64,000 nucleotides of DNA from an uncultured Phycisphaeraceae bacterium (GTDB lineage Bacteria > Planctomycetota > Phycisphaerae > Phycisphaerales > UBA1924), in assembly GCA_964640595.1 (NCBI GenBank), contig CAZXGL010000019.1, forward strand, positions 5,075-69,074, given 5' to 3'. Shown piece after piece: positions 25,566-30,887 of the stretch (its first letter is position 1; each line of letters opens with the position of its first letter). The position numbers and the translations under genes are program-made. A model generated the notes under the pieces. It did not search any database, was not told the origin of the DNA, and saw nothing but the letters and a program-made list of their open reading frames with translations.

Positions 25566-26791
25566 GCGCCACCTCCCGCGCTGGCGGTCAGATCGAAGAG
25601 CGGCAGGAACATGCTGACCGCCACGAAGGCCACCAACCCGCCGAGCACCAGCATGATCAGCGGTTCAAGAAGACTGGACAACGCCTTGATCGTGGACTCG
25701 TTCTCATCCTCGAGATAGTCCGCGATGTGGACCATCACCTCGGCGAGACGGCCGGACTGCTCGCCGTTCCGGACCGCCTGGGCGGAAGCGGGGACGAACA
25801 GATCGCTCTCGATGAACGCCGTGCTGATCGGATCGCCCTTCGTCACACCGCGTTCCGCGCGGTCAAGCATCGCGACGAAGGCATGATTCGAGACCGATCG
25901 TCTGGTCAGGCTGATCGTCTCCATCATCGGCACTTTGGCCTCCAACAGGGTGCCCATGATCCGGGCAACCCGAGCGGTCCCGAAGGAACGCATGATCGGA
26001 CCGATCTTCGGGAGGCCGAGAAGACTCCGCTCCCAGAACCGACGCCCCGGGGTGGTCCGAAACCACCAGACAACGCCCGCGCCCCCCGCGATCGTCGCGG
26101 GAAGGGCGATCCACCAGTAGCCGAGCATCATCCCGGACAGGGCGACAAGGAACTTGGTGGACGCCGGAAGCGGCGTGTCGAGTGTTTCAAACAGGCCGGA
26201 GAACCGCGGCAACACCACCCCGAGCATCAGCAACAGCACGGCGATGCACACGAATGTCAAAAGGATCGGATACATCATCGCAGCGATCACACTCGACCGG
26301 ACCTGGGCTTGCCCGCGCGTCAGAATCGCCAGTCTGTGCAGCATTTTGTCGAGCTGCCCCGAGGACTCACCCGCGGCCACCAACGAACAGAAGACGGAAT
26401 CAAACACTTCTGAATGAGATTCGAGCGCTTCGGAAAGCGCGTCGCCCTCCTCGAGCCGCTTGCGGACGGATGAAACGACGGACTTCCACGCGTCCGTGCT
26501 GGCCTGCTTCTCCAGGGATTCGATTGCATCAGCGATGGGGGTTCCGGTGGAGACGAGCACCGAAAGCTCCCGGGCGAACTGAGCGATCACTTTCGCGCTT
26601 GGCTTTCTTCCCGAACGCCCGGCGCGCTTCTCAACCCGCGCGGCATTGCCCGCTTTGGCGGATTCCTCGATTGAAACTACGAAAACGCCCTGGCGGCGCA
26701 AACGATCGGTCGCGTCGTCCACCCCGGACGCTTCAAGAGAACCGGATGACTTCTTGCCGGATTGGTCGAACCCGGTATACGCATATTTCAT
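25562..26791 (-). CDS. type II secretion / type IV pilus platform protein (GspF/PilC family)
   Basis: MKYAYTGFDQSGKKSSGSLEA..., a duplicated T2SSF domain and three TM segments. ATGA overlaps on both sides. Confidence 0.9.
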   Translation of the reverse strand: MKYAYTGFDQSGKKSSGSLEASGVDDATDRLRRQGVFVVSIEESAKAGNAARVEKRAGRSGRKPSAKVIAQFARELSVLVSTGTPIADAIESLEKQASTDAWKSVVSSVRKRLEEGDALSEALESHSEVFDSVFCSLVAAGESSGQLDKMLHRLAILTRGQAQVRSSVIAAMMYPILLTFVCIAVLLLMLGVVLPRFSGLFETLDTPLPASTKFLVALSGMMLGYWWIALPATIAGGAGVVWWFRTTPGRRFWERSLLGLPKIGPIMRSFGTARVARIMGTLLEAKVPMMETISLTRRSVSNHAFVAMLDRAERGVTKGDPISTAFIESDLFVPASAQAVRNGEQSGRLAEVMVHIADYLEDENESTIKALSSLLEPLIMLVLGGLVAFVAVSMFLPLFDLTASAGGGA

Positions 26792-29048: not shown

Positions 29049-30887
29049 TCAGGCCGCACGCTGCTGGCGGGACTGCTCCGATCCCGGGAGCGTGAGGGTG
29101 AAGGTACTGCCCTGGTCCAGCTTGGACTCGACCTCGATATCGCCACCGTGCAGGCGGGCGATCTCCCGCGCCAGCGCCAGGCCCAGGCCGGACCCCGTGA
29201 CATGGGCGATGCGTCGGTCGTTGGCCCGGTAGAAGCGATCGAAGATCCGCTCGCACTCCTCGGGATCGATCCCGATGCCCGTGTCGATCACATGCACGAC
29301 CAATCCACCCTGCTCCGGCACCTCGACCCGGACCGTGACCTTTCCGCCGGGCGGTGTGTACTTGAGGGCGTTGCCCACCAGATTGTGCAGGGCCTGCCCC
29401 AGCCGATCGCGGTCGGCATGGATCACGGGCATCTTCGGCGGGATATCGAACATCAGTTCGATGGACTTTTCCGTCGCCTGGGCGACATAGTCATTGGTCA
29501 GGTCGTCGAACAGTGCATCCGTACGGACATCGCCCGGTCGGATCGACAGCGAGCCCGCCTCGATCTCGGACACGGAGAGCATGTCGGCCACGATCCGCTC
29601 CAGACGCCTCGCCTCGGAGTTGATGACATTGAGTGCCTGCGCACGGAGCTGAGGATCGGCCTCCCCCTCATCCACCGCCTGTTCGACATACAGACGGATG
29701 TTGGTCAACGGGGTACGCAGTTCGTGCGTCGCCTGCGCAACGAACGAGTTGCGAGACCGATCGGCCACCCGCTGCTGGGTGATATCCTCGATCAGAACAC
29801 CAACGAACCGCTCACCGCCGACCTCGGTGGATCGAACGGACAGACGCAGTTCCGCGTCGGGATCACGCCCGGGCTCGCCGCGGGCGACCTCGACCGTACG
29901 GCGGACCGGGGTGCGGCTGTCCAGGCACTCCGCAACCGCATCCCGGACGGTTTCGTCAGTGAAAGCGGTCGTAAACTCAACCCGTTCCAGCTCGGCCTTG
30001 TGTCGTCCGAGCAGCACCCCAGCCGCGCCGTTGACATAGGTGATATGGCGATCATGCCCGATGGCGACCACGCCGTGCGTCAGTGAGTCACAGATGGCGA
30101 TCACCCCACCGTTCTCACCGGGAATCGTTTGCTCCGCCAGCGTGACCTGATGCTCCGCGATCACCCGATCCTGCCGATCGCGTTCATCCAGGAGCATGTT
30201 CCACGCCGTACCCAGCGGGTCGGAATCCTCGGCCACGCGGAGAACCTGCGCACGCCGCTCACCCTTGGCCGCCTCGGATAGAGCTGTGCCAACGCCCACC
30301 AAGGCCGCCAGCCGCTTTCGGAAGCCCCGGAAAACGAGCCAAACGGCCCCCACCGCGATCAAGGCAATCCCACCCGCCTGAGCGGTCGTCGCGGCGTAAG
30401 GAGGCGTCACCGGGTCGTACGACACCTCGACCACCCCGGCACCTCGTCCTGGCACCTCAAATGTCACCCAGACAGATTGGTTCGAAACCTCGGGCGTCGC
30501 CGGCGTCGTGGACCAGATTGGCGGGATCGAGAGCACCCCGATGTTCTGAGCATCGGTTGAGGCGACCACCCCCACTCCCGCGAGTGTGACCTTGCAGGAC
30601 CGGACCAGACCCGAGCCTTGCAGGTCGATCATCTGGCGACGCACCGCGGCCAGGTCCGACTCACGGAGCAGCAGGTCCGTCCGAGCCGCGACCAGGCTCG
30701 CCACGCCCGTGGCGGACCGTACCCGTTCGTCCTGCGTCTCACTGGCCGCGGCTCGGGCCGACCACCAGGACGACAGCATGACCGCTCCGACGAGCAGCAC
30801 GGCCACGCCGCCCACCAGGCCGGAAACCCAACGGGAGACACCAGCCTCGGAGAAGCCCGCAATGAGTCTGTTGAATCGTTCGTGCAT
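29049..30887 (-). CDS. membrane sensor histidine kinase (periplasmic sensor, PAS, HisKA, HATPase)
   Basis: H-box FVAQATHELRTPLTNI; HNLVGNALKYTP; DTGIGI; GSGLGLALA. I use ATG 30887 (MHERFNRLIAG...) because the longer track ORF runs over tRNA-Tyr. Confidence 0.85.
   Translation of the reverse strand: MHERFNRLIAGFSEAGVSRWVSGLVGGVAVLLVGAVMLSSWWSARAAASETQDERVRSATGVASLVAARTDLLLRESDLAAVRRQMIDLQGSGLVRSCKVTLAGVGVVASTDAQNIGVLSIPPIWSTTPATPEVSNQSVWVTFEVPGRGAGVVEVSYDPVTPPYAATTAQAGGIALIAVGAVWLVFRGFRKRLAALVGVGTALSEAAKGERRAQVLRVAEDSDPLGTAWNMLLDERDRQDRVIAEHQVTLAEQTIPGENGGVIAICDSLTHGVVAIGHDRHITYVNGAAGVLLGRHKAELERVEFTTAFTDETVRDAVAECLDSRTPVRRTVEVARGEPGRDPDAELRLSVRSTEVGGERFVGVLIEDITQQRVADRSRNSFVAQATHELRTPLTNIRLYVEQAVDEGEADPQLRAQALNVINSEARRLERIVADMLSVSEIEAGSLSIRPGDVRTDALFDDLTNDYVAQATEKSIELMFDIPPKMPVIHADRDRLGQALHNLVGNALKYTPPGGKVTVRVEVPEQGGLVVHVIDTGIGIDPEECERIFDRFYRANDRRIAHVTGSGLGLALAREIARLHGGDIEVESKLDQGSTFTLTLPGSEQSRQQRAA

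What the first reader, a model, noticed from the sequence alone, without database searches (positions are those of the whole stretch)
26788..30887. Sensor kinase and STAS protein fused into the head of a pilus/T2SS operon, with the STAS stop overlapping the ATPase start
On the minus strand a PAS-containing membrane histidine kinase (30887 to 29049) comes first. A 112-aa STAS/SpoIIAA-like protein follows 15 nt later (29033 to 28695). Its stop codon overlaps the GTG start of the GspE ATPase (GTGA at 28695-28698). No cognate response regulator, anti-sigma kinase (RsbW/SpoIIAB) or PP2C phosphatase is visible nearby. STAS proteins normally act in partner-switching cascades, so a STAS gene coupled to a secretion ATPase suggests post-translational control of the motor. 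For example, the phosphorylation state of the VDSHG serine could gate ATPase activity. I do not know of such a module being described for T2SS/T4P.
Basis: partly seen in the sequence, partly recalled or inferred. Interest (0 to 1): 0.75.

Follow-up and report, generated by a model that had tools for sequence, protein, structure and literature searches.

The report
STAS partner protein of a secretion ATPase
A small STAS (anti-sigma-antagonist-type) protein is always encoded directly in front of one particular clade of type II secretion/pilus motor ATPases in Planctomycetota. It sits there with a sensor kinase, a receiver protein and a c-di-GMP phosphodiesterase, which points to an undescribed protein cofactor of these motors.

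Summary
On the minus strand a membrane PAS histidine kinase (30887..29049) is followed 15 nt later by a 112-aa STAS protein (29033..28695). The STAS stop overlaps (GTGA) the start of a GspE/PilB-type ATPase that heads a T2SS-like operon.

The arrangement is not chance. About 100 related loci were examined. STAS lies directly upstream of the ATPase in every locus of one monophyletic ATPase clade (22 of 22), and next to none of 70 other PilB-like ATPases. In 80 metagenome loci, every locus long enough to assess has the kinase upstream and the ATPase downstream. A small lineage carries STAS fused to the ATPase N-terminus.

A CheY-like receiver and an HD-GYP phosphodiesterase sit at the other end of the operon (17204..19203, + strand). 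In Pirellulales and Tepidisphaerales the same two genes lie between the kinase and STAS.

No RsbW-type kinase, PP2C phosphatase or sigma factor is linked. Ser56, the canonical phospho-site, is invariant in all free-standing copies examined.

Most likely STAS is a dedicated cofactor that binds the ATPase directly. Phospho-gating of that binding is plausible but untested. I found no paper describing this association. It is a new variant of known kinds.

The parts
29049..30887 (-). Membrane sensor histidine kinase: two TM segments, a periplasmic segment, PAS, HisKA (H-box HELRTPL) and HATPase_c. It is the first gene of the conserved block.
   Evidence: Pfam and NCBIfam hits; translation. An orthologous HK lies upstream of STAS in all 74 assessable metagenome loci and in L001-L016. 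The region upstream of HK is not conserved between loci.
28695..29033 (-). Single-domain STAS protein of the SpoIIAA/RsbV type, 112 aa. Ser56 in FVDSHGLE is the canonical phospho-site. The C-terminal [RK]SF tail is conserved.
   Evidence: PF01740 52.1 bits. The family profile hits TM1442 and SpoIIAA in the PDB. AF2 model pLDDT 93.8, pTM 0.85, with Ser56 at the start of helix 56-71. Foldseek to SpoIIAA/RsbV gives TM 0.84-0.87. D55-S56 is invariant in the 33 orthologues of alignment A1, in the free-standing copies of the genome loci and in 80 of 80 metagenome copies.
26788..28698 (-). GspE/PilB-type hexameric ATPase: MshEN-type N1 domain, N2 domain, and C-terminal ATPase with Walker A (GPTGSGKT) and a CxxC...CxxC motif. 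A 53-aa low-complexity stretch follows the GTG start. It belongs to the STAS-linked clade.
   Evidence: T2SSE 439 bits, MshEN 53.9 bits. NCBIfam PilB 574 and GspE 564 bits, both below their cut-offs; NF053729 c-di-GMP motif domain 57.6 bits against a cut-off of 38. NJ tree. Start-codon analysis.
19320..26791 (-). Rest of the T2SS-like operon: GspF (26791..25562), PilM-like (25565..24519), PilN-like? (24573..23944), PilO-like (23947..23396), unknown (23357..22758), three prepilin-type pseudopilins (22742..21011), unknown (21007..20489), and a Laminin_G_3 protein (20492..19320). There is no PilT and no secretin.
   Evidence: Pfam and NCBIfam. The same gene order occurs in L001, L003 and L005. 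A secretin gene lies upstream of HK in the Pirellulales-type loci.
17204..17602 (+). Single-domain CheY-like receiver, 132 aa, with the acidic pocket DD, the phospho-acceptor Asp, and the conserved Ser and Lys. It is the probable cognate partner of the HK.
   Evidence: Response_reg 72.5 bits. phmmer E = 8e-28 to the receiver that sits between HK and HD-GYP in L047. Sequence.
17599..19203 (+). HD-GYP (HD_5) c-di-GMP phosphodiesterase with intact HD and HHERYDGRGYP motifs. Its GTG start overlaps the receiver's stop (GTGA). It is convergent with the end of the operon.
   Evidence: HD_5 134 bits. Motifs visible in the translation; junction. Homologues are linked to the module in L005, L027, L032, L047, L048, L075, L086, L114 and L144.
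30994..31430 (-). tRNA-Val, tRNA-Thr and tRNA-Tyr cluster ending in a strong intrinsic-terminator hairpin (31014..30994). It marks the 5' boundary of the transcription unit that starts with the HK.
   Evidence: ARAGORN; terminator scan.
32243..33679 (-). Prepilin peptidase (A24), upstream of an OmpA-family gene (32224..31502). It is probably the processing enzyme for the pseudopilins.
   Evidence: Pfam. The same pair lies upstream of the module in L005 and L007.

Best explanation
The STAS protein is a dedicated cofactor of one clade of GspE/PilB-type ATPases that power a T2SS-like type IV filament machine in Planctomycetota. It is made together with the ATPase by translational coupling. I infer that it binds the ATPase directly, most likely near the N-terminal MshEN-type (N1) domain, and sets whether the motor is active or engaged with its platform.

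STAS is the last element of a conserved signalling module with three further parts:
- A membrane PAS histidine kinase senses a signal.
- The kinase phosphorylates a CheY-like receiver.
- An HD-GYP phosphodiesterase lowers c-di-GMP.

The invariant Ser56 lies on the canonical STAS interaction face. It is therefore either a phospho-switch that releases STAS from the ATPase, or a fixed contact residue as in MlaB-MlaF.

Shown: gene content, conservation of linkage, monophyly of the ATPase clade, the fusion, the STAS fold, and conservation of the site.

Inferred: physical binding, the direction of the effect, phosphorylation, and the role of c-di-GMP.
For: 1. Linkage with the ATPase.
- STAS lies directly upstream of the ATPase in the window and in 20 other distinct genome or MAG loci. 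One further locus (L044) carries the two fused.
- The ATPase is downstream in all 69 metagenome loci that have enough downstream sequence.

2. Clade specificity.
- In an NJ tree of 92 PilB/GspE ATPases, the 22 STAS-linked ones form a single clade.
- None of the other 70 has a STAS neighbour. These include two paralogues in this same window.

3. STAS stays next to the ATPase while the other regulators move. Observed orders are:
- HK-STAS-GspE
- HK-REC-HDGYP-STAS-GspE
- HK-REC-STAS-GspE
- REC-HDGYP-HK-STAS-GspE
- REC/HD-GYP divergent from, or convergent with, the operon.

4. The start/stop overlap NTGA occurs in 66 of 80 metagenome loci. G, A or T at the first position all keep a start codon.

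5. Natural fusion.
- L044, P0034 (88% identical to L044) and P0035 (47% identical to P0034) encode STAS-like-MshEN(-T2SSE) proteins.
- The ATPase of L044 falls inside the STAS-linked clade.
- Profile-profile comparison of the fusion N-terminus with the STAS family: 87% probability, E = 3.7e-6. The alignment is colinear.
- The AF2 model has pLDDT above 90 over aa 15-117 with STAS topology. Foldseek to RsbV gives TM 0.81-0.83.
- The fused copies have lost the D-S motif (TS or NG), whereas the free-standing copies examined keep it. This fits a serine needed for reversible binding.

6. Clade-specific ATPase residues cluster in the N1 domain: L118, F141, V143 and E153.

7. No RsbW-type kinase, PP2C or sigma factor was found in the window, in the annotated flanks of L001, L003 and L005, or among the families shown for 119 ORFs upstream of HK in 38 loci (only the 25 commonest of 105 families were shown).

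8. Precedents.
- MlaB is a STAS protein that binds the MlaF ATPase through its helical face and C-terminal coil. The phospho-site equivalent Thr52 sits at the centre of that interface, and T52E weakens binding (PMC7367683).
- PilZ binds the N-terminal domain of PilB (PDB 7lkm; review PMC11656802).
Against: - No physical interaction has been computed or measured.
- The model of the natural fusion gives no confident inter-domain packing: pTM 0.50 and a linker with pLDDT below 50.
- Structurally the protein is closest to SpoIIAA/RsbV, which bind GHKL kinases, and not to MlaB. The only GHKL domain conserved in the module is that of the HK.
- 4-nt overlaps are common to most gene junctions in this operon, so the overlap alone is weak evidence.
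- The fusion lineage is small: three sequences, on short contigs.
- The c-di-GMP arm is uncertain for this particular ATPase. It matches neither half of the published relaxed MshEN motif (Met54 where Arg is expected, Cys where Gln is expected), although the NCBIfam domain model passes.
- The NJ tree has no bootstrap support values.
Confidence: 0.5

Rival explanations
1. STAS acts upstream in signalling and not on the motor. It partner-switches with the GHKL (HATPase_c) domain of the neighbouring histidine kinase, or with the HD-GYP enzyme. In this way it tunes phosphotransfer or c-di-GMP hydrolysis, and the ATPase is affected only indirectly.
For: - The fold and motif are of the SpoIIAA/RsbV type, whose known partners are GHKL kinases.
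- HK is directly upstream of STAS in all 74 assessable Phycisphaerae-type loci.
- HD-GYP is directly upstream of STAS in the Pirellulales-type loci.
- STAS or STAS-like proteins are known to control c-di-GMP enzymes: HsbA-HsbD (PMC5085249) and SiaC-SiaD (PMC8457831), both listed.
Against: - The gene next to STAS on the upstream side varies (HK, HD-GYP or REC). The downstream ATPase never does.
- The observed fusions are to the ATPase, not to HK or HD-GYP.
- The HK has a normal H-box and a cognate receiver, so nothing requires a second substrate.
Confidence: 0.25
2. This is a classical anti-anti-sigma factor. A distant RsbW-type kinase/anti-sigma factor and a PP2C phosphatase control Ser56, and free STAS releases a sigma factor that transcribes this operon or other genes. 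On this view the position next to gspE reflects only co-regulation.
For: - A canonical SpoIIAA-like fold and an invariant phospho-serine.
- From general knowledge, not tested here: Planctomycetota genomes encode many RsbW/RsbU-type proteins.
Against: - No RsbW-only kinase, PP2C or sigma factor was found in the 64-kb window, in the annotated flanks, or among the families shown for the region upstream of HK in 38 loci.
- Strict one-to-one co-inheritance with one ATPase clade, and the fusion to that ATPase, are not expected for a transcription switch.
Confidence: 0.1
3. STAS is a constitutive structural or assembly subunit in the manner of MlaB. It stabilises the ATPase hexamer or its docking to GspF/PilM, without any phospho- or signal-dependent switching. 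On this view Ser56 is only a contact residue.
For: - Translational coupling, like the other machine subunits.
- No kinase is linked to the module.
Against: - STAS always travels with signalling genes (HK, REC, HD-GYP), which suggests regulation.
- The D-S motif is invariant in the free-standing copies examined but lost in the fusions, where tethering is permanent.
Confidence: 0.15

Closest known systems
PilB-PilZ-FimX complex of Xanthomonas/Pseudomonas type IV pili
   Same: [quoted passage not shown] The module is under two-component control (PdeK-PdeR) (PMC11656802; PDB 7lkm among the fold hits).
   Different: - The adaptor here has a STAS fold, not a PilZ fold.
- The c-di-GMP enzyme is an HD-GYP, not a degenerate GGDEF-EAL.
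- The machine is T2SS-like, without PilT.
- The adaptor gene is translationally coupled to the ATPase gene.
MlaB-MlaF (STAS subunit of the Mla ABC transporter ATPase)
   Same: A single-domain STAS protein acts as an obligatory partner of a transport ATPase. The phospho-site-equivalent residue lies in the interface, and the C-terminal tail contributes to binding (PMC7367683).
   Different: - The ATPase superfamily differs: ABC NBD there, PilT/GspE-like hexameric secretion ATPase here.
- Sequence and structure place this STAS with SpoIIAA/RsbV. The NCBIfam MlaB model scores 26 bits against a cut-off of 90, the PDB MlaB hit has E = 0.0036, and MlaB is absent from the top 50 fold hits.
SpoIIAA/RsbV anti-sigma-factor antagonists (partner switching)
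   Same: The fold matches (TM 0.84-0.87, rmsd about 1.9 A). The DS-x-GL motif carries the serine at the N-cap of helix alpha2. The protein is a single domain of about 110 aa.
   Different: - No RsbW/SpoIIAB kinase, PP2C phosphatase or sigma factor is linked.
- The invariant neighbour is a secretion ATPase.
- Family-specific signatures are GLE in place of GLG, and a C-terminal [RK]SF tail.
MshE-type c-di-GMP-binding ATPases (MshEN domain)
   Same: The N-terminal domain is of the MshEN type: PF05157, NF053729 above its cut-off, and fold hits to 5htl for the fusion orthologue.
   Different: The window protein deviates from the published 24-residue motif at the Arg of half-site 1 (Met54) and the Gln of half-site 2 (Cys). 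It fails even the relaxed pattern. No STAS partner is reported for MshE (PMC5013675).
HptB-HsbR-HsbA-HsbD and SiaABCD pathways of Pseudomonas aeruginosa
   Same: A STAS or STAS-like switch protein connects phosphorelay input to c-di-GMP metabolism and surface behaviour (PMC5085249 and PMC8457831, both listed).
   Different: Those systems have a dedicated PP2C/kinase partner, and their target is a diguanylate cyclase or FlgM. Here no such partner is linked, the enzyme is an HD-GYP, and the constant neighbour is the motor ATPase.

Membership tests
STAS domain / SpoIIAA-like anti-sigma-factor antagonist | Sequence match to the STAS family models | tested here: met
   PF01740 52.1 bits (cut-off 22.6) and PF13466 30.4 bits (cut-off 29.2). 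TIGR00377 scores 47.2 bits, just under its 53.45 cut-off.
STAS domain / SpoIIAA-like anti-sigma-factor antagonist | The beta-beta-alpha-beta-alpha-beta-alpha-beta-alpha fold | tested here: met
   AF2 pLDDT 93.8, pTM 0.85. Foldseek to SpoIIAA 1thn_B gives TM 0.86, rmsd 1.9; RsbV 6m36 gives TM 0.85-0.87.
STAS domain / SpoIIAA-like anti-sigma-factor antagonist | Conserved phosphorylatable Ser/Thr at the N-terminus of helix alpha2 | tested here: met
   Ser56 aligns with the DS of YMDSAGLG (TM1442) and FMDSSGLG (SpoIIAA). It is invariant in alignment A1, in the free-standing copies of the genome loci and in 80 of 80 metagenome copies. Actual phosphorylation cannot be tested here.
Partner-switching module (RsbV-RsbW-RsbU type) | Linked RsbW/SpoIIAB-type serine kinase/anti-sigma factor (HATPase_c_2 only) | tested here: not met
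   None among the window ORFs tested, in L001/L003/L005, or among the families shown for 119 upstream ORFs. The rest of the genome was not available.
Partner-switching module (RsbV-RsbW-RsbU type) | Linked PP2C (SpoIIE/RsbU) phosphatase and target sigma factor | tested here: not met
   Same searches as above; no SpoIIE or sigma-70-family hit.
MlaB | Match to the MlaB model and adjacency to the MlaF/MlaE ABC transporter | tested here: not met
   NF033618 scores 26.1 bits against a cut-off of 90. The neighbours are HK and GspE, not Mla genes.
GspE (T2SS ATPase) / PilB (T4aP extension ATPase) | Equivalog-level match | tested here: not met
   TIGR02533 GspE 563.8 bits (cut-off 630.25); TIGR02538 PilB 574.2 bits (cut-off 675.65). 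It is a member of the superfamily (PF00437, 439 bits) but of neither curated equivalog.
GspE (T2SS ATPase) / PilB (T4aP extension ATPase) | Walker A, tetracysteine zinc motif and N1/N2/CTD architecture | tested here: met
   GPTGSGKT and CDSC...CAAC are seen in the translation. Pfam gives MshEN at 108-192 and T2SSE at 228-608.
Canonical T2SS | Secretin GspD, GspC and GspL/M in the cluster; no retraction ATPase | tested here: inconclusive
   There is no secretin in the window, but a secretin gene heads the Pirellulales-type loci. PilM/N/O-like genes stand in place of GspL/M. Pseudopilins G and H plus three more genes are arranged as in a T2SS. There is no PilT in the operon.
MshEN c-di-GMP receptor | Two 24-residue RLGxxLLxxGLLxxxxLxxxLxxQ motifs separated by 5 residues | tested here: inconclusive
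   The domain model NF053729 passes (57.6 bits, cut-off 38). Half-site 1 starts with Met54 where Arg is expected, and half-site 2 ends with Cys where Gln is expected. There is no match to the relaxed published pattern. Binding was not measured.
Two-component system | HK with a phospho-acceptor His, plus a receiver with a phospho-acceptor Asp, genetically linked | tested here: met
   The H-box HELRTPL and the N, G1, F and G2 boxes are in the translation. The receiver has DD, D, S and K. HK and the receiver are adjacent in L047, L048, L050, L075 and L086. Phosphotransfer was not tested.
HD-GYP c-di-GMP phosphodiesterase | HD_5 domain with intact HD and GYP motifs | tested here: met
   PF13487 134.3 bits. 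VHDVGK and HHERYDGRGYP are seen in the translation. Activity was not tested.

The most novel reading that the evidence does not exclude
This would be a partner-switching module whose output is a secretion/pilus motor and not a sigma factor. Unphosphorylated STAS docks on the N1 domain of the GspE hexamer and clutches or declutches it from the platform. The GHKL domain of the co-operonic histidine kinase, acting as a serine kinase in the manner of SpoIIAB, phosphorylates Ser56 and releases STAS. The same kinase would then drive two arms: His-Asp transfer to the receiver and HD-GYP (c-di-GMP), and Ser phosphorylation of STAS.
Probability: 0.12. Interest if true: 0.85.

Novelty: new variant of a known kind. 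Interest (0 to 1): 0.6.

Why it matters
- **Gap in the field.** Extension ATPases of type IV filament machines (T2SS, T4P) are known to be controlled by c-di-GMP and by a few adaptor proteins (PilZ/FimX, and others reviewed in PMC11656802). That review does not mention a STAS cofactor.
- **What is new here.** A whole ATPase clade has co-evolved with a STAS protein and with a kinase/receiver/HD-GYP set. This suggests a new way of coupling environmental sensing to a secretion motor.
- **Wider meaning for STAS.** It would extend the repertoire of STAS proteins acting on ATPases beyond MlaB-MlaF.
- **Testability.** The natural STAS-ATPase fusion and the invariant Ser56 give direct handles: binding assays, and S56A/E alleles.
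- **Use in annotation.** Planctomycetota are known for polymer degradation and unusual cell surfaces. A regulated T2SS-like exporter is relevant to their ecology. The module also gives a simple genomic marker, STAS directly upstream of gspE, for recognising this machine.

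Tried and rejected
1. **Complex prediction.** No interface could be modelled.

2. **Shine-Dalgarno explanation for the RSFL tail.** I considered that the invariant C-terminal RSFL merely encodes a Shine-Dalgarno site (AGGAG) plus the start codon for gspE. I rejected this as the sole cause. The [RK]SF motif is kept at protein level with different codons (AGG, AGA, CGG, AAA, AAG; AGC, AGT; TTC, TTT), even where there is no overlap.

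3. **Alternative ATPase start.** I considered that the ATPase really starts at Met54, which would leave a 155-nt gap. I rejected this because of orthologues in which the overlapping start is followed at once by the MshEN motif.

4. **Misalignment.** The first alignment of the fusion with STAS and MshEN proteins (A2) placed STAS on the MshEN region and was discarded. A4 is colinear.

5. **Pfam on the fusion.** Pfam does not detect STAS in the L044 fusion. The call rests on the family HMM, hhalign and the structure model.

6. **Motif regex.** The regex for the published relaxed MshEN motif did not separate STAS-linked ATPases from the others: a tandem match in 1 of 22 against 1 of 70. It gives no clade-level statement about c-di-GMP binding.

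7. **PDB 3t6o.** This STAS protein from Planctomyces limnophilus is not an orthologue.

8. **Neighbours upstream of HK.** A search for recurrent neighbours there found only unrelated housekeeping genes.

9. **Family census.** The exhaustive profile search gave the family size (25 clusters at E <= 1e-30, 905 at E <= 1e-10). It gave no genomic context, because those proteins cannot be looked up.

Full report
**1. The observation**

The minus strand between 30887 and 26788 carries three genes, as described.

The first gene is a 612-aa histidine kinase.
- Pfam finds PAS_4, HisKA and HATPase_c.
- The translation shows two hydrophobic segments flanking a segment of about 130 aa that is probably periplasmic. 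It also shows a normal H-box (HELRTPL) and the N, G1, F and G2 boxes.

The mechanical ORF extends to 31166. That stretch covers tRNA-Tyr and a strong terminator hairpin at 31014..30994. ATG 30887 is therefore the start, and the kinase opens a new transcription unit.

Fifteen nucleotides after the kinase stop, preceded by GAGGAG, a GTG opens a 112-aa STAS protein (PF01740, 52.1 bits).

Its TGA overlaps the GTG of a 636-aa ATPase with MshEN and T2SSE domains. The overlapping start is genuine.
- In L008, L012, L013, L014 and L027 the same start is followed within 8-10 residues by the MshEN motif, and there is no other start codon.
- The first base of NTGA varies among G, A and T, all of which keep a start codon.
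- The window protein has a 53-aa Arg/Asp/Pro-rich stretch after the start. It stays in frame in the 95%-identical L007 and is variable or absent in other orthologues.

Four-nucleotide overlaps also join GspE/GspF, GspF/PilM, PilN/PilO, pseudopilins G/H and the last two genes (coordinates). STAS is therefore arranged like a subunit of the machine.

**2. The surroundings**

Downstream of the ATPase lie these genes:
- GspF
- PilM-, PilN- and PilO-like genes
- a gene of unknown function
- three prepilin-type pseudopilins (GspG-like and GspH-like among them)
- another gene of unknown function
- a Laminin_G_3 protein

There is no PilT and no secretin. I call it a T2SS-like type IV filament system. 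The ATPase and GspF score below the curated equivalog cut-offs for both GspE/F and PilB/C. Upstream, beyond three tRNA genes, are an OmpA-family gene and a prepilin peptidase.

At the far end of the operon, convergent on the + strand, are two further genes.
- The first is a 132-aa CheY-like receiver (17204..17602) with all phospho-acceptor residues.
- The second is a 534-aa HD-GYP protein (17599..19203) with intact HD and GYP motifs.
- The two are themselves joined by a GTGA overlap.

No HATPase_c_2-only kinase, PP2C phosphatase or sigma factor was found among the window ORFs tested.

**3. Conservation**

A protein search with STAS returned 33 orthologues at 48-100% identity from Phycisphaerales/Planctomycetota assemblies. 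Every context examined shows HK-STAS-GspE-GspF-PilM....

A scan of one genome per species with the ATPase returned 80 loci. I scanned all of them with an HMM built from the STAS family.
- STAS lies directly upstream of the ATPase in the eight close Phycisphaeraceae loci.
- It also does so in distant Planctomycetota whose ATPases are only 42-48% identical: Pirellulales L047 and L075, Thermoguttaceae L050, Tepidisphaerales L086, Phycisphaerales L048, Planctomycetaceae L016, plus L015, L027 and L032.
- None of the remaining loci has it. These include Myxococcota, Nitrospirota, Omnitrophota, Verrucomicrobiota, Firmicutes and Armatimonadota, mostly with PilB-PilT-PilC-PilS-PilR clusters.

In a neighbour-joining tree of 92 ATPases, the 22 STAS-linked ones form one clade. 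The other 70, which include the window's own two additional PilB-like paralogues, lie outside it. The tree has no bootstrap support values.

A metagenome scan with the STAS alignment gave 80 further loci at 46-85% identity.
- The ATPase is downstream in all 69 loci that have enough sequence.
- The kinase is upstream in all 74 assessable loci.
- The junction is NTGA in 66 of 80.

The region upstream of the kinase is not conserved between loci, so the conserved block begins with the kinase.

An exhaustive profile search finds 25 clusters (at 50% identity) at E <= 1e-30 and 905 at E <= 1e-10. Nearly all of the best 150 are single-domain proteins of 111-112 aa.

**4. The wider module**

In the Pirellulales, Tepidisphaerales and L048 loci the order is secretin - PAS-HK - single-domain receiver - (GAF-)HD-GYP - STAS - GspE - GspF (Pfam). 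The other regulators change place between lineages:

| Locus | Arrangement |
|---|---|
| L050 | HK-REC-STAS-GspE |
| L144 | REC-HDGYP-HK-STAS-GspE |
| L114 | REC and HD-GYP divergent, upstream of the kinase |
| L027, L032 | HD-GYP-STAS-GspE |
| window, L005 | REC-HDGYP convergent at the 3' end of the operon |

The window's receiver matches the L047 receiver at E = 8e-28. Kinase, receiver, HD-GYP and STAS therefore stay linked to this ATPase clade while their order is shuffled. Only the STAS-ATPase junction is fixed.

**5. The STAS protein**

D55-S56 is invariant in the free-standing copies examined (33 orthologues, the genome-locus copies and 80 metagenome copies). The residue after Ser is free, and GLE follows. 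The C-terminus carries a conserved [RK]SF tail. That tail is kept with varying codons, so it is a protein feature and not just an embedded ribosome-binding site.

The family profile aligns the DS to the DS of TM1442 and SpoIIAA in the PDB. The AF2 model (pLDDT 93.8) places Ser56 at the first residue of helix alpha2. The best structural matches are SpoIIAA in its complex with SpoIIAB, TM1442 and RsbV, with TM 0.84-0.87. MlaB is a weak sequence hit (E = 0.0036) and is not among the top 50 fold hits. No member of this family has a solved structure; 3t6o from Planctomyces limnophilus is not an orthologue.

**6. A natural fusion**

L044 encodes a 698-aa protein in which about 125 residues precede the MshEN motif by roughly six residues. 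Its ATPase falls inside the STAS-linked clade. The upstream gene is a GAF-GGDEF-EAL protein. Two further sequences span the same junction: P0034 (88% identical to L044) and P0035 (47% identical to P0034).

Evidence on whether the N-terminal part is a STAS domain:
- Pfam misses it.
- The family HMM hits it at 2.8e-5.
- Profile-profile comparison gives 87% probability, E = 3.7e-6.
- MAFFT aligns the STAS orthologues colinearly with it.
- AF2 gives pLDDT above 90 with STAS topology over residues 15-117.
- Foldseek returns RsbV, SpoIIAA and TM1442 for this part, and MshE/PilF GSPII/PilB(N)-PilZ for the rest.
- Caveat: the alignment used for that model contained STAS sequences.

The model shows no confident packing between the two domains (pTM 0.50). 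In the fusions the D-S motif is replaced by T-S or N-G.

**7. Interpretation**

The pattern is what is expected of two proteins that work in physical contact: strict co-inheritance with one ATPase clade, a fixed junction, translational coupling, and an occasional fusion. The absence of any linked RsbW, PP2C or sigma factor argues against a classical sigma switch.

I therefore take STAS to be a cofactor of the ATPase. It probably acts at the N1 (MshEN-type) domain. The fusion places it there, and the clade-specific ATPase residues L118, F141, V143 and E153 lie in that domain.

Two precedents exist for this kind of arrangement.
- MlaB is a STAS protein that binds the MlaF ATPase. The phospho-site equivalent lies at the centre of that interface (PMC7367683).
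- PilZ binds the N-terminal domain of PilB and links it to c-di-GMP proteins (PMC11656802; PDB 7lkm).

The accompanying kinase, receiver and HD-GYP suggest that the motor is set by an external signal through c-di-GMP. That arm is uncertain for this particular ATPase.
- The NCBIfam c-di-GMP-motif model passes.
- However, Met replaces the first Arg and Cys replaces the last Gln of the published motif.
- The relaxed published pattern is not matched.

Because the protein looks like SpoIIAA/RsbV, a switch involving the kinase's GHKL domain remains a serious rival. The loss of the D-S motif in the tethered fusions is consistent with Ser56 serving reversible binding. Phosphorylation itself is untested, and no kinase is identified.

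**8. Novelty**

Full-text searches combined STAS or anti-sigma-factor antagonist with PilB, GspE, T2SS, type IV pili, MshEN or Planctomycetes. They found nothing describing this association. Neither the 2024 review of PilB cofactors nor the MshEN paper mentions STAS. The library is limited to open-access papers and preprints, so an earlier mention cannot be excluded.

All the parts are known kinds. The combination, a STAS cofactor of a type IV filament ATPase inside a TCS/HD-GYP module, is a new variant.

**9. Limits**

- Everything is inferred from sequence.
- Most loci are MAGs. The few non-planctomycete labels (L027 "Deltaproteobacteria", L044 "Gammaproteobacteria", L015 "uncultured bacterium") sit on short contigs and may be binning errors.
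- The rest of this genome was not available to search for a serine kinase or phosphatase.

Noticed in passing
window 51466-63379 (-) and 45483-51611 (-): A second type IV filament cluster. It holds a PilB-like ATPase (63379..61397), PilT (61327..60203), a second PilB-like ATPase (60150..58294), PilC (58235..56943), and four unusually large prepilin-motif proteins (382-616 aa). A 2042-aa ORF follows. Neither ATPase has a STAS neighbour, and both fall outside the STAS-linked clade.
   Followed up: partly
L044 1604-3700; L087; P0035: A rare natural fusion of a STAS-like domain to the MshEN-T2SSE ATPase, preceded in L044 by a GAF-GGDEF-EAL gene. In L087 the gene is broken by frameshifts downstream of the junction.
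   Followed up: yes
window 28540-28698 (-): A 53-aa Arg/Asp/Pro-rich low-complexity stretch lies between the ATPase start codon and its MshEN motif. Among orthologues it is present, variable in length, or absent (8 to about 55 aa). Its function is unknown.
   Followed up: partly
window 11527-12375 (-): A YcgR-like PilZNR+PilZ protein, a possible c-di-GMP receptor, lies next to a TgpA transglutaminase/DUF58 cluster about 5 kb beyond the REC/HD-GYP pair. I did not check whether it is linked to the module in other genomes.
   Followed up: no
window 2814-5040 (-): A second, ordinary two-component system: an HisKA/HATPase_c kinase with an OmpR-type response regulator. It is unrelated to the module as far as can be seen.
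   Followed up: no
window 19320-20492 (-): The last gene of the operon encodes a 390-aa protein with a Laminin_G_3 (concanavalin-like lectin) domain, in the position where a T2SS would have GspK. It is conserved in L005; L001 has a CBM_4_9 protein there instead. It may be a tip or substrate-binding pseudopilin.
   Followed up: no
window 31017-33679 (-): A prepilin peptidase of unusual length (478 aa, with A24 domains at both ends) and an OmpA-family gene are separated from the kinase by a tRNA-Val/Thr/Tyr cluster. The peptidase-OmpA pair is also found upstream of the module in L005 and L007.
   Followed up: partly
search result, (P0113, P0117, P0125, P0151, P0178 etc.): Among the best 150 relatives of this STAS family are tandem-STAS proteins (about 220-240 aa, two matched stretches) and a few long proteins (563, 846 and 1206 aa) with three matched stretches. 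Their architectures and genomic contexts could not be examined.
   Followed up: no
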